Position numbers and translations under genes: made by a program. The notes below the pieces were generated by a model that was given only the letters and a program-made list of their open reading frames with translations, was not told the DNA's origin and did no database searches. From Dictyostelium discoideum (lineage: Eukaryota), in NCBI GenBank assembly GCA_000004695.1, contig CM000151.3, positions 2,816,001 through 2,880,000 on the forward strand: 64,000 nucleotides of DNA. The letters are read 5' to 3'. Below, piece by piece: positions 32,730 through 57,953 of this stretch (its first letter is position 1; each line of letters begins with the position of its first letter).

Positions 32730-34628
32730 TTAATCTAAATCTTCTTCAGTGGTTTTGGCACCAGAGAAGTTACCTGGGTTTTCACCACCTTGTTGACCGT
32801 AAACTTTAGAGATGATTGGTGAACAAACAGCTTCTAAATCTTTCATGGCTTTTTCGTATTCTTCTTTAGTGGCAGAGTCGTTGGCATGTAACCAGTTGAT
32901 GGCTTCATCGGATTTCTCTTCGACGGTCTTACGATCTTCTTTTGATAATTTGGCGGCGATCTTATCGTCTTTAATGGTGCTACGAACGGTGTAAGCGTAG
33001 TTTTCTAATTTGTTCTTTGATTCAACAACTTCACGTTGGGCTTCATCTTGAGCTTTGAACATTTCAGCATCTTTGACCATCTTTTCGATTTGTTCAGCAG
33101 TGAGTCTACCTTTATCGTTGGTGATGGTGATTTTGTGTTTGTTACCAGTGCTCTTATCTTCAGCAGAGACATTTAAGATACCGTTGGCATCGATATCGAA
33201 AGTAACTTCAATTTGTGGGACACCACGTGGAGCTGGTGGGATGTTGGTTAATTCGAATTTACCTAATAAGTTGTTATCACGAGTCATAGCACGTTCACCT
33301 TCGTAGACTTGAACTAAGACACCAGTTTGGTTATCAGAGTAGGTGGAGAAAGTTTGGTTCTTTTTGCATGGAATGGTAGTATTTCTTGGGATGAGGGTAG
33401 TCATGACACCACCGGCGGTTTCGAGACCCATTGATAATGGAGCAACATCTAATAATAAGATATCGGCAACTTTAGCACCACCTTCGTTGGAGAGAATGGC
33501 AGCTTGGACGGCAGCACCATAGGCAACGGCTTCATCTGGATTGATGGATTTGTTGAGTTCTTTACCGTTGAAATGATCTTGTAATAATTGTTGAACCTTT
33601 GGAATACGAGTTGAACCACCGACTAAGACGATTTCGTGAATGGTCTTCTTGTCTAATTTGGAGTCTTTTAAGACTTTGTCGACTGGGTCTAAACAACCAC
33701 GGAAGAGATCAGCGCATAATTCTTCGAAACGAGCTCTGGTGATTGAGGTGTAGAAATCAATACCTTCAAAGAGGGAATCAATTTCAATTGAAGCTTGAGC
33801 AGATGAAGATAAAGTTCTCTTGGCACGTTCACAAGCAGTTCTTAAACGACGGAGGGCACGTTGGTTGGTCATTAAGTCTTTCTTGTGTTTACGTTTGAAT
33901 TCATCGACAAAGTGGTTGACGAGACGGTTATCAAAATCTTCACCACCTAAATGGGTATCACCAGCGGTAGCTTTGACTTCAAAGACACCATCTTCAATGG
34001 TGAGGAGAGAAACATCGAATGTACCACCACCTAAATCGAAAATTAAGATGTTACGTTCACCTTGTGATTTCTTTTCGAGACCATAGGCAATAGCGGCGGC
34101 AGTTGGTTCATTGATAATACGTTGGACGTTTAATTTAGCGATGGCACCTGCATCTTTGGTGGCTTGACGTTGGCTATCGTTGAAATAAGCTGGAACGGTG
34201 ATAACGGCGTTGTTGATGGTTTTACCGAGGTAAGCTTCAGCGGTTTCTTTCATCTTTAAGAGAACCATTGAAGAGACTTCTTCTGGTGAGAAAGTTTTAA
34301 CTTCACCTTTGAATTCAACTTGGAGATGTGGTTTGTCACCTTCTTTGGCGATAACTTTGAATGGCCAATGTTTCATATCGGATTGGATAACTGGATCAGA
34401 GAATTTACGACCAATTAAACGTTTGGCATCAAAGATGGTGTTGGTTGGATTCATGGCAACTTGATTCTTAGCAGCATCACCAATTAAACGTTCAGTTTCG
34501 TTGAAAGCAACGTATGATGGGGTGGTTCTGTTACCTTGATCATTAGCAATGATTTCAACACGATCATTTTGCCAGACACCAACACATGAGTAAGTTGTAC
34601 CTAAATCAATACCAATAGAGGAAGACAT
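32730..34628 (-). CDS. Cytosolic Hsp70/Hsc70 family chaperone (632 aa, intronless)
   Basis: Full-length match to the Hsp70 family: '[14 protein letters not shown]', '[12 protein letters not shown]', '[13 protein letters not shown]' and the substrate-binding domain. The C-terminus is ...[19 protein letters not shown]. Confidence 0.95.
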
Positions 34629-45363: not shown

Positions 45364-45442
45364 TTATTGTTCTTTATAATCGGAGATACCATCACTGTAA
45401 ATACCAAAAGGCTAAATAATAAAATAAAAAGTTAGTGAATTG

Positions 45443-45482
<40 letters not shown>

Positions 45483-46597
45483 ATTATTATTATTTTAAAA
45501 AAATTATTTACCTTTTCACTTTCAGGAAGTGATGGAGAATCATAAATTTTACAAATTCTCATTTCACCTTTACCTTTACGTAAAGATAAACGAGTTGTTG
45601 AAGAGTGGGCCATAATATGACCACCAATTGGCTTCTTTGGATCGGGATTAAACATACCACCAGCACCATCAACAGATGCAACGACTTGATTTGTAATAAC
45701 GACGGCAACACCAAACTCATCGGCTAATCTTTGAAGAGTACGTAGGAAACGTGCTAAATGTTTTTGTCTATCTGCCAACTCACCTCTACCGGCGTAATCT
45801 GTTCTATATAATGCGGTTGCGGAATCAACAATCAATAAAGCATAACGTGATTCACTCATCATTGCAGATGCTTGAACTAATAACTCTAATTGATGATCAC
45901 TATTGTATGCACGAGCATATGAAACATTATCCAAAACATGTTCACCATTTAAATTATATCTCTCTGCAATTGCTAACAATCTCTCTGGACGGAATGTTCC
46001 TTCTGTATCAATATATAAAGCACGACCTTCACCACCACCTTGACTATAACCAAGTTGACATGTTACACATAATGTATGACAAATTTGAGTTTTGCCAGTT
46101 CTAAACTATAAAAAAAAAAAAAGAGTTATTATTATTATTAATTATTTTTTGAGTTATTATTATTATTATTAAAAAAAACATACTTCACCAAAAATTTCAG
46201 TAATTGAACCAGATTCAATACCACCATCTAATAAAGAATCAAATTCTTTTGAACCAGTTGTAATTTGAATAATTTCAGCTCTTGCTTTATTAATATCGGT
46301 TGCAGTACGAAAGCCCATAAAAACTAATTTCTTTGCTTCTGCTAAAAGTTTATCAGCTTTTTGCTCAGAGATACCTTTGATACCTGTTAATGTTTTCTTT
46401 GTTGTAAAAGCAACTGCTTGTACTGTATTTAAACCTTGTTCTTGAAGTTTCTTTAAATCTGCTGCATTAATACCATTACCTTCTAATTTATTAATTGATA
46501 AATATGACTCTTCCTCCTCTTCTTCTTCTTCCTCTTCTTGTTGTTGTTCATTTTCAATATCAACTTCTTCTTCTTCTTGTCTTTGTCTTGATGCCAT
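45364..46597 (-). CDS. rad51: DNA repair/recombination protein Rad51 (RecA-family ATPase); 3 exons: 46184..46597, 45512..46105, 45364..45411
   Basis: '[27 protein letters not shown]|[18 protein letters not shown]...[22 protein letters not shown]...[64 protein letters not shown]...[13 protein letters not shown]|[15 protein letters not shown]'. Walker A (GEFRTGKTQ) is split by intron 1 (GTATGT...atag). Intron 2 is GTAAAT...tatttag. Closer to Rad51 than Dmc1 across the L1/L2 region. About 351 aa. Confidence 0.9.
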
Positions 46598-46844
46598 TTT
46601 AATTTATATATTTATTTAATTTATTTAATTTATTTTTTTAATTTACAAACTATTATTATTATTATTAGATTATGATATATTACTGCTTTAAATGTTGAAT
46701 GAAAATAAAAAAAAAATTTAAATGTAAAAAAAAAAATTTAAATGTAAAAAAAAAAATTTTAAAAAAAAAAAATAAAAATAAAAAATTTCATTTTTTCTTA
46801 GAAATTTTGGAATATCTTTAAAAACTGTGTTTTTAATAAAAAAA

Positions 46845-47137: not shown

Positions 47138-47343
47138 TTAGGATTTAAATATGTTAATGACTCTTGTTATTCTACTTCTACAAATTGGGCACTTTTTTAA
47201 TTTTACTGAACATAATGAACAACAACTTAAATGACCACATTCTAAAAAAACAGTATTAATTTCGTTATCCATACAAACTGTACAAAGATCTTTTGATTCA
47301 TCAGACCCATTATTATTATTATTCCTTTTAGTTGTGCTACTAC

Positions 47344-47408
<65 letters not shown>

Positions 47409-47469
47409 CTACTACCATTTGATGTAGTTTGATGTGTTTCTTTAATGTTACAATTATTATTATTACTAC

Positions 47470-47550
<81 letters not shown>

Positions 47551-49002
47551 CATTTTCATCTTCAGAATTTAAAAATGTTGGTAAATTATCAAAATTTTCA
47601 TCTGAAACTCTTTCTTTTTCTTTTTCTTTATCTTTACCTTTTTCTTTTTCTTTTTCTTTTTTATCTTTATCATTTTTAAAAGATGATTTTCTAGATTTGG
47701 TTGGTGATTTATTTGTATCACTACTATTACTCGAATCAATAGTGAAAAATGAACTTGGTGATGTTGAAAATGTATTTATATTATTATTATTATTATTTTG
47801 ATTATTATTTTGATTATTATTATTTTCATCAGGTAAAATTAAAATTGGATTATTATTAATTATTGATAATGGTGGTAATAAATCATTATCTAAAGGACCA
47901 ATTGGATATTTTAATTTTGAAGAAAAAGATAAAATAAAAGATAAAATACTTTTAAAAATATCGGGTGGTTTTTGAAGTGTTAAACCACCATTGATTGAAG
48001 AAGTCACTGGATAGAGTAAACAATGTCTAATATGATTTGTAGAATCAACAAAAGTGATAGCGAATGCACCAACAATAGTTTTACTACAACGTAATAAATA
48101 ATAACCAACTTGTTGTCTCGATAACAATTGTGTTGCCTCTATACCAGATATGAAACCACTGAATATCTTTGAGTTTATAACATCTTGAAATATACCAAGT
48201 GATACAGGTAATGCTCCAAACCATTTTATAAATACTGATAGCTTGAATGGTGTAACATAACCATCCCGGGTGAAATCTAATGTATATCTTAAACTTGATT
48301 CATAAGCTAATATCTCCTTATTGAAAAACTTTTGAAATCCTTTAAAAAATATTGACCATGGCACAAATGTTATTTTATTTCCACCAAATTGATTCCACAA
48401 TACTTTTGCTTCATTACTTAATAATTCATATGGATTATAATTATTATTATTATTATTATTATTTTCATTATTCAATGATGACGATGATGGTGGAAATAAT
48501 GCTAATAATTGGTCAATTGATTGTTTTAAAATTGAATCAACTTTTAAAAGATTATTTATAATTAAATTTGAAGTAAAAGAATTTGTTGAATTGATTGTTG
48601 TGTTAAAGGTGATTGTGGTTGGAGGTGATGAAAGTTTTAATAAAAGTTGTTGAAATTGAATTAAATCTTGATAAAGTTTACATATTGAAAATATAAATGA
48701 TTCAATACCATATTCAATGATTTTAATTTCACTACAAATTATTTTTGAATCTGATAGATTGAAATTGATTTTATTTTCATTTTCATAATGAATATAATTA
48801 ACTAATGATGTTTTTGTAAATTGTATTGTATTATTTAATTCTGAAAATTCTTGATCATTTAAAACCGTTTTTGATTTAAAATTATTTAAATCTTTAATAA
48901 TTTTATCAATAATTGTAATTAATTCACTTATATTATTTTTATATGATATTGTTGTTATTGTAGTTGTTGTAGTTGTTGTGGTTGTACCATTATTGTTACT
49001 AT

Positions 49003-49033
<31 letters not shown>

Positions 49034-49135
49034 GTTATTATTATTATTATTAATGTTGTTATTGTGAGCTAGTAAAGGAATACTTAAAAATGAAGGAGCA
49101 TTTGATTTATTACTTGTTATTGTGGCTCTATTCAT
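47138..49135 (-). CDS. cblA: Cbl-like E3 ubiquitin ligase: TKB-type region (4-helix/EF-hand-like/variant SH2) followed by a long low-complexity linker and a C-terminal C3HC4 RING finger (candidate cblA)
   Basis: Aligns to human c-Cbl TKB: 'AKVLWNQFGGNKITFVPW' ~ 'KALWFKNSGEKTLISWKEF'; 'TLDFTRDGYVTPFKLSVFIKWFGALPVSL' ~ '[29 protein letters not shown]'; 'GYYLLRCSKTIVGAFAITFV' ~ '[20 protein letters not shown]'. C-terminal RING 'CTVCMDNEINTVFLECGHLSCCSLCSVKLKKCPICRSRI'. The start was chosen at MNRATITSNK (49135). The upstream Lys-rich extension of the track ORF is a translated poly(T) 5' region. Confidence 0.7.
47343..47553 (-). repeat. Two (AAT)n blocks on the coding strand (plus-strand ATT) encoding poly-Asn within the Cbl-like linker
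   Basis: Plus strand 'attattatt...' 47343..47400 and 47463..47553. Confidence 0.9.
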
Positions 49136-49484
49136 TTTTTTTTTTTCTTTTTTTGTTTTTTTTTTGTTTTTTTTTTGTTTTTTTTTTTTTTGTTTTTTTT
49201 TTTTTGTTTTTTTTTTTGTTTTTTTTTTTGTTTTTTTTGATTTAAAAATTAATTCATGGTACAAAAATAAATGAACAAATAAATAAATAATAAATAATAA
49301 CTACAACCCAACACAAAGAAGAAGAAAAAAAAAAAAAAAAAGAAAAAAATTTTCTGTGTAATTTGATAATAAAAAAAAAAACTTTTTTTTAGAATTGGTC
49401 AATTTGGTGTTACGCACACTTTTTTTGATTTGAAAATTAATCAGCTAAAAAAAATTCAAAAAAATTTCTGATTGTTTGCTTAAT

Positions 49485-49521
<37 letters not shown>

Positions 49522-50317
49522 TTTTAATTTTTTTTTTTTTTTTTAACATTTTAAATTTTTTTTTTTTTTTTTTTTTTTGGACTGGTATAAAAAAATTTTC
49601 ACTTTTTAACCAAAATAATAAAAGTTGGCAAAGCTAATTAAATAAAATACCAGCAAACAAAACCCTTCCAATCCATTTTATTTCTCTTTCTTAAAAAATT
49701 TCATTTTCTAAACAGATATTTTTCAAAAATGACAAACCCCAAAAAATATCTTTATTTATTTTTTTTTTTGTTTAAAAAAAAACATTTTAAGTGAAAAATA
49801 AACCAGGGTTATGTTTTTTACACAAATAATATATTTTCATTTTTCTATTTTTATTTTTATTTTTTTTTATTTTAAACTTTAATAATCTCATGTTGAAGAA
49901 TCAATTGATTCAAGGAAATAAATTAACAAAAACCACCAATATTTTTTATTCTATGTTTTTTTTTTTTTTTTTAAAAGTACAATTTGTTTATTATATTATT
50001 TATTTATTTTGAGGTTACATATAATCTCATGATAAAAGAATCAGTGCCATCTGGAAATTCAATTGAAGAAGCATTAACAAAACCTAAAGGGTAAGCTTTC
50101 TTTACACAATCAATAGTTAAATACTTTGTCCAATTAATTGCTTTAACTATTTTAGTTTGATCAGCTGTATTTGGTGATAATGAAATAACTAATGAATCTT
50201 CATTTGAACCTGGAATTGATTGTGCAATAGTTTGTTTTAATTGTTTAATTGTTAATGATTCTTGAAAAAATACTTTTACAATACCACCATTTGGTAATTT
50301 TATCTAAACAATTTTTA

Positions 50318-50811: not shown

Positions 50812-52857
50812 TTAAGAATTTGGTTGATACATTGGATTATCACCATTTCCAGTTGGATTTTCATATAAAGGATTTGAAGTTAAAGATGCAAGAGAATTAT
50901 TATTTGAAGCAGCCCATGCATCATAACCTTTTTTAGAAGCAACTACAATAGCAATGGCAACTACAGCAGCAGCGACTGAAACACCAACAATAACAGAGGT
51001 TGATATGATTGCAGCGGGTTTACAAACAAAAGGTTTTGGATCAAAATCAACCGATTCACATCTTCCTGGTTCAGTTGAAGTAGCATTTATACAAACACCA
51101 GTTTCACATTTTGGATTTGAAGGTATACAAACTTTATCGAAAACAATACAACCAGTCACATCGGAACATTGAGAAATTTGACAAAATGAAGGTGAGTCAC
51201 AAATACGATCTTTTAATTTACATTCACCAGCATCACAATAACCAATTAGACAATTACCTTTGTTTGGACAAATTTTTGGTACACCAACACAGCCAATATC
51301 AGCATTACAAGTATAATCCATACATGGATTGGTGATATTACATGATAGAGGTGTGTGAATACAACTACCATTGTTCATACATTGATCAATGGTACATAAA
51401 TTACCATCATCACAATTGGATTCAATTGGAATACATTTTCCATTATTACATTTGGTACAACCAGAACATTCCATTGGAGTATGTTTAACACTACCAGTTA
51501 TTTTATCACAAATATCGATTGTACATGGATTACCATCATCAATGGTATCAATTGGTAGTGGGGAGCAAACTGGTGGATTTACACTTTGATCACAGTTATT
51601 CTTTTGACATGGGTTTAATTTACAATTACAATTACATTCTGTACTATTTTGAGTGTATGTACCACAAACACCTTTATCAGCGGAGCAAGTTGGAATAACA
51701 CATGGATTGGAGGAGGAAGGGGAAGTACATTTTGGAGTTGCCATACAACCACCATTCTTTGCATTACAACTATAAATTTTACATGGATCTTCACCCAATT
51801 CATTGGAACAATAATCAGCATCCATGCTGGTACATTTACCATTATTACATTCACCAGTTAAACATGGACCAATACAATTTGATTTATATTGACAACCAAG
51901 TTTTGGATCACAACCAGTTAGCGTCATACAATATTTAGATTTATCGGCACATTCTAAATTACCAATTACTTCACATTTACCATTGGTATCTTTTGAACAA
52001 CCAGTGATTACACATTTATTATTTGATGGTTGTGTACAAGTGATATTGGTATGTCTACAATATTTTGAAATTTTATCACCACCTGGAATTGGTAAATTTG
52101 GTAATGGACAACTATCAATGGTGCATGGATCATCGTCATCACAATCAAGGTCTTTATTACAACATGTTGAACCATCACCTTGACAAACACCACAATAATC
52201 AGACCATGCACAAAATGCTTGAATATCAGTTTGAATTTTCATTTTACTATAGGGTGTATGTCTTTCACAATAAAAGAAATCAAAGGAATAGGTTTTGTTA
52301 ACTTGTAAACCCAACTTTGTCAAATCAACAGTACCTCTTCTAGCAGGATGTAAACCACCTAAATCCAAGACCAACTTCTTATCAATAAATACCCAAACAT
52401 CATCATCACCTTCAAATTTAAAAGTTTCAGTACCTTGATAAAAGAATACTGAATTAATCTTTAAACAATAATGAAAGTTATGATAGGCTGTAAAAATTCT
52501 ACCACCATAATAGATTCTATTACTCTCATCAACATCCCAACCTTGATAATCAATTGGAAAGAAATCATCCTTTACAAATGAATAAATATTTGATGATTTA
52601 TCCAATGTTAAATTTAATTTCTTTAATAACATTACATTTTGTGTATGGTTTTTATTAAACCATGTTGGAAATAAATTTAAATTTTTTAATTTACCATTTA
52701 CAAATGGTTTAAAATTTGGATCATTTGATGCTAATGTTGGACTATCACCTTCCAATACATTTTTTATCATTCCAACTGAAATATCACCATAATCTGGTTC
52801 AAAATCACTATTTAATTTTGGTAATTGATCAAAAATTGAACAACTTAATAATAAAAA

Positions 52858-55172: not shown

Positions 55173-56411
55173 TTATTGTGGAATTTGACATAATGGGATA
55201 CCATTTAACCATTCAACATTACCATCACAATGAGTACAATCTAAACCACTGAAATTATTAACACATCCACAAGTACCATTACAAGTGAAATATGGAGTTG
55301 GACCACAATCAACACTTGTGAAACATTGAGCAGGGATACCACCTTCACCTAATGGAGTACAAGTTGGAATACCATTATACCATAAGGTTTTACCTTTACA
55401 AACACCATCAATTGATTGGAAACCAACAGCAGCTTGACATTGATGATTGGAAGTTGGTGTATAAATAGTTTTACCATTTTTACCATCAATACCAATTGAT
55501 TTAACAATACCATCTTTAGTTGTATAATAAATGACACCACCCTTTGAAACCATTGAAATTACATTTTCACCAGTGATTAATTTAATGGCTTGATTAGAGT
55601 TAGCAGATTTTGAATAAGCAGTTATACCATTTGAATGAGAGAATACAATTAAATCACCCTCGACTAAGAAATCAGTTAAATGACTTGCATCAGTATCACT
55701 ACCAATTTCAATCAATTGATCTTTTGTACAATTTGAACAATCAGCTTTACCTTTTAAGAATTTACCATCATAAGTTGACATATATAAATCATTACCATCT
55801 TTTGCTAAACCATTAACAATTTGTGATTGATAAATTAATGTTGCATCTTGAGCATCACTTCTTTGTGTTGGTAATTTATTTAATTTATAAATACCATAAG
55901 CACCATAGATCATTGATTTTTCAATATCATCAAAAATTGGAACGAATGGTGTATTGAAAATATTGAAAACATATTTAACTTTATCACCACCATTATTTGC
56001 ATCTATAAGTGAGAAAATTGGTGCTGATCCACCTTGATTCATTAATACATAATAATAATTTGATTGGGGTAAATAATCATAGAATGAATAAAGTTTGAAT
56101 GATCCTGCACCACTTTCAATTTCACCATTGATATTAATTCTTTGAGAAATTTCATTACTTCCATTACCTGAAGTTGGAATATTAAACATTTTTGGTGTAC
56201 CAAATGGACCACCTTGTGAACTATTAAATTTACCTGCAATAATTAAATTATCATTCCCATCCATACTAATACCTGGATAAACATTTAAACCACCATTACA
56301 TGCTGCATATGGATATCCAACACCACATTCATAATCTTCATTACATTGATTACTTGATAATACTGCACCAACAATTGAAAATGCAATAATTAATGATTTT
56401 AAAATTTTCAT
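55173..56411 (-). CDS. Secreted protein with signal peptide and C-terminal EGF-like Cys-rich module; hypothetical
   Basis: Signal peptide MKILKSLIIAFSIVGAVLSS. Intronless 412-aa ORF. C-terminal 'CFTSVDCGPTPYFTCNGTCGCVNNFSGLDCTHCDG' has EGF-like spacing. Confidence 0.65.
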   Translation of the reverse strand: MKILKSLIIAFSIVGAVLSSNQCNEDYECGVGYPYAACNGGLNVYPGISMDGNDNLIIAGKFNSSQGGPFGTPKMFNIPTSGNGSNEISQRININGEIESGAGSFKLYSFYDYLPQSNYYYVLMNQGGSAPIFSLIDANNGGDKVKYVFNIFNTPFVPIFDDIEKSMIYGAYGIYKLNKLPTQRSDAQDATLIYQSQIVNGLAKDGNDLYMSTYDGKFLKGKADCSNCTKDQLIEIGSDTDASHLTDFLVEGDLIVFSHSNGITAYSKSANSNQAIKLITGENVISMVSKGGVIYYTTKDGIVKSIGIDGKNGKTIYTPTSNHQCQAAVGFQSIDGVCKGKTLWYNGIPTCTPLGEGGIPAQCFTSVDCGPTPYFTCNGTCGCVNNFSGLDCTHCDGNVEWLNGIPLCQIPQ

Positions 56412-56888: not shown

Positions 56889-56893
<5 letters not shown>

Positions 56894-57953
56894 GAGTATT
56901 TGGATTATTTTGGTCATTAACACGATATAAGAAATCAGTTAATAAACCAGTACCAATTTTCTTTATTGAAGTTGCAGAATATTCTTGAAATTTTGAAGGT
57001 ATTTTATTAATTGATTGGCAAGGTTTACCCAACCTATCTACACCAGCCCAAGCAATAAAAGATTTAACTTGACAACCATTAATTGGTATTCCATCTCTAA
57101 TTAAAATCGGAGTAGAAGATGGTGTAGTTGTTGATGTGCCAGTAGTAGTTGTTGTTGTTGTTGTTGTACCATTAATTATTGTTGAATTTGATAATTTATC
57201 ATTATCTCTTAATTCATTACATTTCATATCCTTAACTTTTACACCACATTGAGAATCAATACATTGATCACACTGTTTTTCACACATACCAGGAATTCTA
57301 TCACCATCCCAAACAGCATCAACAATTTTACCATTCTCTAATTGAACAATAATTGTAAAATAATTTACAAATGATTGAGTTAAATTTGAAAATATATGTT
57401 TTGGTGGTAAAATTATTGGATACAATTTAAAAGTTTCAGTATTCACTATAACTTCTTTTGTATAATTTCCACTTGTATTATTTTTACAATCTGTATAATT
57501 TGTTAGAGTTTCCATTACACCAATACTATTATTAAATGTGCATGGAAATGTTTGATTCTCTCTAACACTTGTAAATGTTGAAATATTTTTTAAACCTGGG
57601 AATTCTGCCCAAACTGTATAATGCTCATTTTGAACCATGAAATTAGTATTTGGTATTTTTATTGTAGTGAATTCGTCAACTCTTGGATGATAATCTGTAG
57701 ACATTAATAATTTGCTTTTATTATTATGTATGAAAAATCTCATAAATGACCAATCATATCTTTGATACATTTTATTTGAATCATTAGTAATATTATTAAC
57801 TGTGAAATTTATACCTTGATTTAACATAAATGTTGTATCTATAATTTGTTTTGACCAAATTTTTGGTCCTTTAACAATTTGACTTTGATTTTTATTAATT
57901 ATTAAAAATATTAATAAAATTATTAAAAAATAAAAATTATAATTTAATTTCAT
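56889..57953 (-). CDS. Secreted, heavily N-glycosylation-site-rich hypothetical protein (354 aa) with poly-Thr linker
   Basis: Signal peptide MKLNYNFYFLIILLIFLIINKNQS. More than 15 NxS/T sequons. Cys cluster 'CEKQCDQCIDSQCGVKVKDMKC'. A Thr run precedes the C-terminal domain. Confidence 0.6.

What the first reader, a model, noticed from the sequence alone, without database searches (positions are those of the whole stretch)
47138..49135. Cbl-like TKB domain separated from its RING finger by about 200 aa of low-complexity linker
The TKB-like region aligns block-for-block with human c-Cbl (EF-hand-like and variant SH2 segments, including the [16 protein letters not shown]-like strand). In metazoan Cbl the RING abuts the SH2 through a short conserved linker helix that is essential for E2 positioning. 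Here the only RING (CTVCMDNEINTVFLECGHLSCCSLCSVKLKKCPICR, IAP/MGRN-like spacing) is at the extreme C-terminus, after poly-Asn/Lys/Glu-rich sequence. This is either a lineage-specific rearranged Cbl (cblA candidate) or a different SH2+RING design.
Basis: partly seen in the sequence, partly recalled or inferred. Interest (0 to 1): 0.5.

Follow-up and report, generated by a model that had tools for sequence, protein, structure and literature searches.

The report
Dictyostelium cblA: known Cbl-like ligase

Summary
Window 47138..49135 (minus strand) is one uninterrupted 665-codon ORF. It encodes a complete Cbl-type tyrosine-kinase-binding (TKB) module at aa 68-415: a four-helix bundle, an EF-hand and a variant SH2. 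A disordered linker of about 200 aa follows (41% Asn), and a RING sits at the extreme C-terminus. Neighbouring ORFs are exact matches to D. discoideum AX4 chromosome 2 proteins, and each carries two accessions, as expected for the duplicated segment of that strain. D. discoideum has a single Cbl orthologue, CblA (Langenick et al. 2008), which promotes STATc tyrosine phosphorylation by down-regulating the phosphatase PTP3. The gene is therefore already known. Three points add to the published picture. TKB plus a C-terminal RING is the general amoebozoan design: 66 relatives carry a RING, always followed by a 12-15 aa tail ending in Phe or Tyr. The spacer ranges from about 26 to 180 aa, so the long spacer is mainly a dictyostelid low-complexity expansion. 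At profile level the RING and tail match IAP, MUL1 and MYLIP RINGs far better than the Cbl RING, and no linker helix with a regulatory tyrosine is detectable. I infer tail-mediated activation, probably through a RING dimer, instead of the metazoan phosphotyrosine switch. Interest is low.

The parts
47138..49135 (-). Complete single-exon cblA coding sequence, 665 codons plus the TAA stop at 47138-47140
   Evidence: one ORF with no intron donor-like motif. The first in-frame ATG after the upstream stop is at 49135.
48950..49135 (-). N-terminal low-complexity segment, aa 1-62 (39% Asn, 21% Thr), containing the small motif (A/I)PSF(L/I) shared with the four dictyostelid orthologues retrieved
   Evidence: Composition. 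pLDDT below 50. Alignment.
48497..48934 (-). Four-helix bundle of the TKB, aa 68-213 (helices 69-88, 94-112, 144-169, 184-213)
   Evidence: AF2 pLDDT mostly above 85. Foldseek aligns the whole TKB with Cbl structures. The A4 profile aligns colinearly with the Cbl-b four-helix bundle. Pfam Cbl_N gives no hit.
48173..48430 (-). Cbl-type EF-hand domain, aa 236-321. The loop is D287-T289-D291-Y293...K298 (nt 48242-48277). Lys replaces the Glu found at loop position 12 in Cbl.
   Evidence: Pfam Cbl_N2 44.4 bits. Alignments to Cbl-b. Family alignment.
47891..48163 (-). Variant SH2 domain, aa 325-415. R349, S351 and T353 are invariant and align with the R-x-S-x-T of Cbl's phosphotyrosine pocket.
   Evidence: Pfam SH2 28.1 bits. 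Invariant columns. Alignments. AF2 secondary structure.
47294..47890 (-). Disordered low-complexity linker, aa 416-614 (41% Asn; Lys/Glu/Asp-rich block 478-505; poly-Asn 530-555 and 578-597)
   Evidence: composition. (pLDDT below 50 for 421-620); the linker is not conserved and its length varies from 26 to 179 aa among relatives.
47141..47293 (-). C-terminal RING, aa 615-652 (Cys618 to Cys652), plus a 13-aa tail RSRITRVINIFKS. V620, L646 and R653 align with the E2-contact and linchpin positions.
   Evidence: Pfam zf-C3HC4_3 53.5 bits. cIAP2, cIAP1, MYLIP, XIAP and MUL1 RINGs at E 1e-11 to 1e-8. Invariant columns. Tail statistics.

Best explanation
The ORF is the D. discoideum cblA gene, one of the two identical copies in the AX4 chromosome-2 duplication. 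It encodes the published Cbl-family RING E3 ubiquitin ligase CblA. The N-terminal TKB module (four-helix bundle, EF-hand, variant SH2) is the substrate-recognition unit and most likely binds a phosphotyrosine ligand through the conserved R349/S351/T353 pocket. The C-terminal RING recruits an E2~ubiquitin through V620 and L646 and activates it with the linchpin R653. The intervening segment of about 200 aa, rich in Asn, Lys and Glu, is a disordered tether. The RING therefore reaches TKB-bound targets by flexible tethering, not through a fixed linker helix. Published genetics places the protein upstream of the phosphatase PTP3: CblA lowers PTP3 and so raises DIF-1- and stress-induced STATc tyrosine phosphorylation. 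Shown here: gene identity and structure, domain content, disorder of the linker, and conservation of the pocket and RING residues. Inferred: phosphotyrosine binding, E2 activation and the flexible-tether geometry. Also inferred is that the IAP-like C-terminal tail, with its aromatic residue third from the end, primes E2~Ub in place of the metazoan phospho-Tyr371 linker helix, probably through RING dimerisation.
For: Species and locus: three window ORFs are exact matches to D. discoideum AX4 proteins on the 8.48-Mb chromosome 2 contig, each with two accessions, e.g. DDB_G0273145/DDB_G0273599. The TKB profile matches Cbl-b and c-Cbl at E 4e-18 to 6e-21, with the four-helix bundle colinear. The AF2 model has TKB pLDDT of 85-96, and all top-50 Foldseek PDB hits are Cbl-family TKBs, with TM up to 0.74 normalised on TKB-only chains. 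The linker has pLDDT below 50. The three full-length dictyostelid orthologues (Polysphondylium, Acytostelium, Heterostelium) and other amoebozoans (Cavostelium, Clastostelium, Pellita, Endostelium) share the TKB plus C-terminal RING design; the Synstelium gene model has the TKB only, with a glycosidase-like tail that looks chimeric. R349, S351 and T353 are invariant in 37 sequences. V620, L646 and R653 are invariant in the 7-sequence alignment. [quoted passage not shown] 2008, J Cell Sci 121:3524). For the tail mechanism: 66 of 66 RING-bearing relatives end 12-15 aa after the last Cys with [IV][FY]xx. The CblA RING and tail align with cIAP2 to within 2 residues of both C-termini. The family profile scores IAP RINGs at 50-60 bits and the Cbl-b RING at 4.7 bits.
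Against: The exact 665-aa sequence is not in the 15-billion-protein collection, and no Dictyostelium-genus orthologue was returned. I therefore could not compare it residue by residue with the deposited CblA entry, and the primary paper is not held. Identity rests on the locus, the species and the one-orthologue statements. Pfam Cbl_N and Cbl_N3 do not hit this protein. The EF-hand position-12 Glu is Lys in dictyostelids, so calcium binding is doubtful. Direct phosphotyrosine binding, E3 activity, direct ubiquitination of PTP3 and RING dimerisation were not tested here.
Confidence: 0.92

Rival explanations
1. It is not a true Cbl orthologue. On this view a mobile EF-hand plus SH2 cassette fused independently in Amoebozoa to an IAP-type C-terminal RING, converging on the Cbl logic of phosphotyrosine reader plus RING. 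The gene would still be cblA, but 'Cbl homologue' would hold only for the TKB half.
For: The family profile scores IAP, MUL1, XIAP and MYLIP RINGs at 47-60 bits and the Cbl-b RING at only 4.7 bits. RING spacing and tail length equal those of cIAP2. No linker helix is found. The Cbl_N2+SH2 cassette occurs with other partners in protist proteins, including RhoGAP, C2-copine-kinase and tandem SH2, and in STATs, so it is demonstrably shuffled.
Against: The whole TKB including the four-helix bundle is colinear with Cbl, not just the EF-hand and SH2. Domain order is the same, and in short forms the SH2-to-RING spacing (about 37 aa) is close to my from-memory count of about 39 aa in c-Cbl. The CblA and c-Cbl RINGs are 39% identical over 44 aa, share the CGHL motif, and both hit PF13920. 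RINGs are short and diverge quickly.
Confidence: 0.2
2. Two genes or transcripts: a TKB-only adaptor and a separate small RING protein, joined only by a chance open frame through AAT-repeat DNA.
For: The linker is low-complexity AAT-rich DNA in which open frames are easier to keep. Some database relatives lack a RING (P0017, P0033, P0037).
Against: There is no stop in 665 codons (P about 6e-29) and no intron or donor-like signal. No ATG-initiated RING ORF appears separately in the ORF list. Homologues with unrelated linkers of 26-179 aa still have TKB and RING in one protein, many on cDNA-like contigs or transcriptome assemblies. The RING-less relatives are truncated, frame-shifted or chimeric models.
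Confidence: 0.02
3. The linker is not a passive tether. It would carry functional short motifs or act as a prion-like or condensate-forming poly-Asn region that controls CblA localisation or activity.
For: Weakly conserved motifs lie inside the linker. PILILPDE (aa 435-442) is shared with Polysphondylium and Heterostelium. (D)xLPTF (aa 511-516) is aligned by MAFFT with the conserved KLPGF(A)YDGK of the short forms. In the short-form model the first 20 linker residues are confident, with pLDDT 78-90.
Against: Poly-Asn tracts are common in D. discoideum proteins in general (own knowledge, Eichinger et al. 2005). Linker length and sequence are not conserved even among dictyostelids. The D. discoideum motif regions have pLDDT of 36-41.
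Confidence: 0.15

Closest known systems
Dictyostelium discoideum CblA (Langenick, Araki, Yamada & Williams 2008, J Cell Sci 121:3524)
   Same: Same species, and the only protein of this domain type reported there, with EF-hand, SH2 and RING. By all available evidence this is that gene (PMC3085826, PMC3934975).
   Different: No difference is expected. I could not retrieve the deposited sequence or the paper for a residue-level check.
Metazoan and choanoflagellate Cbl family (c-Cbl, Cbl-b, Cbl-c; PDB 2cbl, 1fbv, 2y1m, 3zni, 6bk5)
   Same: It has a complete TKB fold (four-helix bundle, EF-hand, variant SH2) with the conserved phosphotyrosine Arg/Ser/Thr. The RING lies C-terminal to the TKB. The RING carries the E2-contact hydrophobic residues and the linchpin Arg.
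   Different: There is no linker-helix region and no Tyr371-type switch. The spacer is about 200 aa and disordered, against about 39 aa in c-Cbl. RING loop 2 is shorter (6 residues, against 11 in c-Cbl). The protein ends 13 aa after the RING, with no Pro-rich or UBA tail. The EF-hand position-12 Glu is Lys. Pfam Cbl_N and Cbl_N3 are not matched.
IAP-type C-terminal RINGs (cIAP1/2, XIAP, BIRC7, MUL1, MYLIP; PDB 3eb5, 6hpr, 4ic2, 4auq, 6k2k, 2yhn)
   Same: It shows the best sequence and profile similarity to this group, with identical Cys/His spacing. The tail length is the same as in the cIAPs and XIAP, with an aromatic residue third from the C-terminus. In IAPs this tail builds the RING dimer and contacts donor ubiquitin (own knowledge: Mace et al. 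2008; Dou et al. 2012).
   Different: There are no BIR, CARD or UBA domains, and substrate recognition is by a Cbl TKB. Dimerisation has not been tested.
Short amoebozoan CblA-like proteins (e.g. Cavostelium apophysatum P0020, Pellita catalonica P0071, Endostelium zonatum P0098)
   Same: They have the same TKB, the same RING and the same 13-14 aa tail, with 30-37% identity to the window protein.
   Different: Their linker is only 26-60 aa and begins with a conserved, confidently modelled NxWTLKKKLPGFxYDGK segment. They keep the EF-hand position-12 Glu and lack the poly-Asn tracts.

Membership tests
Cbl family E3 ligases | N-terminal four-helix bundle (Pfam Cbl_N) | tested here: met
   The Pfam Cbl_N HMM gives no hit in this protein or in 6 relatives. 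AF2 predicts four long helices (69-88, 94-112, 144-169, 184-213) at high pLDDT. Foldseek aligns about 355 columns with whole Cbl TKBs, TM up to 0.74. The A4 profile aligns colinearly with Cbl-b residues 47-148. The feature is met at fold and profile level but not at Pfam level.
Cbl family E3 ligases | Cbl-type EF-hand domain (Pfam Cbl_N2) | tested here: met
   44.4 bits against a cut-off of 22. All 7 aligned relatives hit, with best E 8e-26. Caveat: Ca-loop position 12 is Lys298, not Glu.
Cbl family E3 ligases | Variant SH2 with a phosphotyrosine-binding Arg (c-Cbl R294 equivalent) | tested here: met
   The generic SH2 model scores 28.1 bits against a cut-off of 21. Cbl_N3 is only weak (E 0.011) in 5 of 7 family members and is absent here. 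R349, S351 and T353 are invariant and align with Cbl's FRLSCT. Binding itself was not tested.
Cbl family E3 ligases | Conserved linker-helix region with a regulatory Tyr (c-Cbl Y371) directly joining SH2 and RING | tested here: not met
   Residues 421-620 have pLDDT below 50 and no helix. The short-form relative has only a 5-residue helix followed by disorder, and its RING superposes on Cbl at rmsd 14-23 A. No sequence match to the linker helix appears. The aromatic residue in the short-form linker motif varies between Tyr and Phe.
Cbl family E3 ligases | C3HC4 RING C-terminal to the TKB with E2-binding residues | tested here: met
   zf-C3HC4_3 scores 53.5 bits. The RING is 39% identical to the c-Cbl RING. 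V620, L646 and R653 are invariant. However, the family profile scores the Cbl-b RING at only 4.7 bits.
Cbl family E3 ligases | Negative regulation of phosphotyrosine signalling by ubiquitination of pTyr-marked targets | not testable with these tools
   Literature only: cblA-null cells have reduced STATc phosphorylation through raised PTP3 (PMC3934975, citing Langenick 2008).
IAP-like C-terminal (tail-dimerising) RING E3s | PF13920-type RING with C-x2-C-x11-C-x-H-x3-C-x2-C-x6-C-x2-C spacing | tested here: met
   In one search, IAP, MUL1, XIAP and MYLIP score 47-60 bits.
IAP-like C-terminal (tail-dimerising) RING E3s | RING at the extreme C-terminus with a tail of about 13 aa carrying a penultimate-region aromatic residue | tested here: met
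   The tail is RSRITRVINIFKS. In 66 of 66 RING-bearing relatives the tail is 12-15 aa with [IV][FY] near the end. The alignment with cIAP2 runs to 2 residues from both termini.
IAP-like C-terminal (tail-dimerising) RING E3s | RING homodimerisation needed for E2~Ub activation | not testable with these tools
   No multimer prediction or experiment was available.

The most novel reading that the evidence does not exclude
Amoebozoan CblA-type ligases may be a distinct way of building a Cbl. A full TKB would be tethered by a freely variable, often disordered spacer to an IAP-like RING. That RING's invariant C-terminal aromatic tail, acting through RING dimerisation, would take over the donor-ubiquitin-priming role that the phospho-Tyr371 linker helix plays in animal Cbl. 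The phosphotyrosine switch would then be a holozoan innovation linked to the rise of true tyrosine kinases. The ancestral or parallel form would be constitutively active and regulated only by substrate phosphorylation.
Probability: 0.35. Interest if true: 0.4.

Novelty: already known. Interest (0 to 1): 0.15.

Why it matters
CblA is the reference example showing that Cbl-type phosphotyrosine-directed ubiquitin ligases predate animals. Recognising the locus adds nothing new to annotation. The comparative by-product has modest value for people working on how the Cbl activation switch evolved. That by-product is a pan-amoebozoan family with a constant IAP-like RING tail, a spacer that varies about seven-fold in length, and no linker-helix tyrosine. 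It suggests simple experiments in a tractable organism: tail deletion or F663A, and linker swaps.

Tried and rejected
1. Exact look-up of the 665-aa protein found nothing in the collection, so a direct match to the deposited CblA was impossible. Identity was established through neighbouring ORFs instead.
2. A full-length homology search was swamped by poly-Asn words: 8000 candidates gave 4 hits, one of them a spurious GPCR. Searches with the TKB alone and with a TKB profile worked.
3. The primary paper (PMID 18840649) is not held. Four further literature searches found only secondary citations and no discussion of the linker or RING type.
4. It was replaced by structure prediction with Foldseek and by profile alignment.
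The indirect test shows no Cbl-like docking, and RING placement is low-confidence in any case (Foldseek rmsd 14-23 A for the short form).
6. The 83-nt 'inverted repeats' flanking the gene are poly-A and poly-T tracts with many equally good shifted alignments, so they were rejected as low complexity.
7. No tRNA genes lie near the locus.
8. The two-gene or intron hypothesis was rejected.
Full report
**Observation.** The stretch 47138..49135 on the minus strand is one uninterrupted ORF of 665 codons, with ATG at 49133-49135 and TAA at 47138-47140. The window has 21% GC, so a stop is expected about once in 11 codons. The chance of 666 stop-free codons is about 6e-29. The other five frames of the same stretch hold 25-176 stops, and no intron-donor-like motif is present. 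Pfam gives three hits above their curated cut-offs: Cbl_N2 (EF-hand, aa 236-309, 44.4 bits), SH2 (aa 325-374, 28.1 bits) and zf-C3HC4_3 (aa 615-659, 53.5 bits). A phmmer search of PDB sequences matches aa 236-371 to the TKB domains of Cbl-b, c-Cbl and Cbl-c. It matches aa 615-663 best to the RINGs of cIAP2, cIAP1, MYLIP, XIAP and MUL1. The SH2 ends near aa 415 and the first RING cysteine is aa 618. The 197 residues from 418 to 614 are 41% Asn, with poly-Asn runs of 26 and 20 and a Lys/Glu/Asp block.

**Whose gene it is.** Three other ORFs of the window are exact matches to D. discoideum AX4 proteins on the 8.48-Mb chromosome 2 contig: Hsc70-2, an EGF-like protein, and DDB_G0273145/DDB_G0273599. 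Each carries two accession numbers, as expected for the duplicated segment of that strain. Rad51 exons lie directly downstream. The literature held here states that D. discoideum has 13 SH2-domain proteins, of which exactly one, CblA, is an orthologue of Cbl. It also states that CblA is a positive regulator of STATc tyrosine phosphorylation and acts by down-regulating the phosphatase PTP3 (PMC3085826, PMC2906285, PMC3934975, PMC5015263, all citing Langenick et al. 2008, J Cell Sci 121:3524). The primary paper is not held. The exact protein and all Dictyostelium-genus orthologues are absent from the protein collection. Identification therefore rests on species, locus and uniqueness, not on a residue-by-residue match. 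I regard it as secure.

**Anatomy.**
- An AlphaFold2 model built with a 37-sequence alignment is confident (pLDDT about 85-96) for aa 68-415.
- That region shows four long helices, the EF-hand helices and an SH2.
- All 50 best Foldseek matches in the PDB are Cbl-family TKB domains, including the choanoflagellate one. TM reaches 0.74 when normalised on TKB-only chains.
- A family profile aligns colinearly with Cbl-b from the second helix of the four-helix bundle through the SH2 (E 6e-21). The TKB is therefore complete, although the Pfam Cbl_N and Cbl_N3 models do not fire.
- R349, S351 and T353 are invariant in 37 sequences and align with the FRLSCT phosphotyrosine pocket of Cbl.
- The EF-hand loop keeps D287, T289, D291 and Y293. 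It has Lys298 where Cbl and the short amoebozoan relatives have the bidentate Glu, a dictyostelid-specific change that puts calcium binding in doubt.
- Residues 421-620 are predicted disordered, with pLDDT below 50.
- The RING has the cIAP2 spacing, and its aligned E2-contact positions (V620, L646) and linchpin Arg (R653) are invariant.
- The protein ends 13 residues after the last Cys, with RSRITRVINIFKS.

**Relatives.** The three full-length dictyostelid orthologues (Polysphondylium, Acytostelium, Heterostelium) have the same layout with unrelated linkers; the Synstelium gene model has the TKB followed by a glycosidase-like tail and no RING, and looks chimeric. A profile search and an exhaustive HMMER scan of 1.84 billion cluster representatives found 1480 relatives of the TKB, 84 of them at E of 1e-30 or better. 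In all 66 the RING is at the extreme C-terminus, followed by a tail of 12-15 residues (13-14 in 62) ending in [IV][FY]xx. The distance from the end of the TKB profile to the RING ranges from 26 to 179 residues. D. discoideum, at 163, is second longest. All named sources are Amoebozoa from both major branches: Cavostelium, Clastostelium, Pellita, Endostelium and the dictyostelids. In the short forms about 37 residues separate the conserved LKHPLG motif from the first RING Cys. That is close to my own from-memory count for c-Cbl, about 39. So the design is not a rearrangement. It is the general amoebozoan version of Cbl, and the long spacer is mainly a dictyostelid low-complexity expansion. Such expansions are very common in D. 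discoideum proteins (own knowledge).

**How it most likely works.** The TKB recognises a phosphotyrosine-marked partner. The C-terminal RING recruits and activates E2~ubiquitin. The disordered spacer lets the RING sweep a large volume around the bound target. Published genetics makes PTP3 the relevant downstream target, directly or indirectly. Animal Cbl differs in the element between SH2 and RING. Its linker helix clamps the RING in an autoinhibited state. Once Tyr371 is phosphorylated, the same helix contacts donor ubiquitin (own knowledge: Dou et al. 2012 and 2013; see also PMC5015263).

No such element is detectable here. The D. discoideum linker is disordered. The short-form model shows only a five-residue helix before a disordered stretch, and its RING does not superpose on the Cbl RING (rmsd 14-23 A). 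The aromatic residue in the short-form linker motif is Tyr or Phe interchangeably.

The RING and tail resemble IAP-type RINGs much more than the Cbl RING at profile level, 50-60 bits against 4.7 bits. They share the exact tail length and an aromatic residue third from the end. In IAPs that tail forms the RING dimer and primes donor ubiquitin. I therefore infer, without having tested it, that CblA uses a tail-dependent, probably dimeric, RING mechanism and lacks a phosphotyrosine switch on the ligase itself. This would fit an organism without conventional tyrosine kinases.

**Rivals.**
- The two-transcript reading is excluded by the continuous ORF and by the many homologues that keep both halves in one protein.
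- An independent-fusion reading has some support. On it, a TKB-like cassette was joined separately to an IAP-type RING. The Cbl_N2+SH2 cassette also occurs with RhoGAP, C2-copine-kinase and tandem-SH2 partners and in STATs.
- Against the independent-fusion reading: the whole TKB including the four-helix bundle, the domain order and the ancestral spacing all match Cbl. A RING phylogeny would settle the matter.

**Verdict.** Novelty is 'already known' and interest is low. The only part that may be new is the comparative picture: a pan-amoebozoan family with a constant IAP-like tail, a variable spacer and no linker-helix tyrosine. The mechanism it suggests remains an inference.

Noticed in passing
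P0207, P0160, P0094, P0116, P0125, P0130, P0162, P0129 (hits): The Cbl-type EF-hand (Cbl_N2) plus SH2 cassette occurs in long RING-less proteins from unnamed sources (metagenome or protist assemblies) with other partners. Examples are RhoGAP+Cbl_N2+SH2, C2+copine+Cbl_N2+2xSH2+tyrosine-kinase-like kinase, and Cbl_N2 with tandem SH2. This suggests a shuffled phosphotyrosine-reader module outside animals.
   Followed up: partly
window 48242-48277 (aa 287-298): The five dictyostelid CblA proteins examined (the window protein and the orthologues from Polysphondylium, Acytostelium, Heterostelium and Synstelium) have Lys at EF-hand loop position 12. Cbl and most of the short amoebozoan relatives have the calcium-coordinating Glu there, although a few have Ala or Trp. 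The EF-hand may no longer bind calcium in this lineage.
   Followed up: partly
TKB profiles A2/A4 against PDB 1uur (Dictyostelium STATa): The CblA TKB profile hits the EF-hand-like linker plus SH2 of Dictyostelium STATa at E 6.6e-10, better than any other non-Cbl SH2 protein. This is consistent with the idea, recalled from memory and not checked here, that STAT and Cbl phosphotyrosine modules are related.
   Followed up: no
window 45392-46597 (-): A Rad51 gene in at least two exons (HHH_5 plus the Rad51 N-terminus at 46169-46597; the Rad51 core at 45392-45979) lies directly downstream of cblA on the same strand. A 540-bp A/T-rich spacer separates them.
   Followed up: partly
window 32733-34628, 55176-56411, 56892-57953 (-): These are exact matches to D. 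discoideum AX4 Hsc70-2, an EGF-like protein, and DDB_G0273145/DDB_G0273599. Each carries two accession numbers, which places the window in the AX3/AX4 chromosome-2 duplication. A PA14 plus Dicty_CTDC repeat protein lies at 50815-52770.
   Followed up: yes
window 46702-46784 and 49487-49569; 49136-49250: Apparent 83-nt inverted repeats flank cblA, and an (A)nC repeat lies in the 5' leader. Both are homopolymer A/T tracts with many equally good shifted alignments, so they are low complexity and not a structured repeat.
   Followed up: yes
P0037 (Synstelium polycarpum, 625 aa): The gene model has the CblA TKB followed by a glycosidase-like C-terminus (precomputed PF22612) in place of the linker and RING. 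It looks like a chimeric or mis-joined gene model and not a real architecture.
   Followed up: no
P0006-P0036 linker; window aa 511-516: Short amoebozoan CblA-like proteins share a conserved, confidently modelled segment NxWTLKKKLPGFxYDGK just after the SH2 (pLDDT 78-90). MAFFT aligns its LPGF with LPTF in the D. discoideum linker. This may be a remnant docking motif; its function is unknown.
   Followed up: partly
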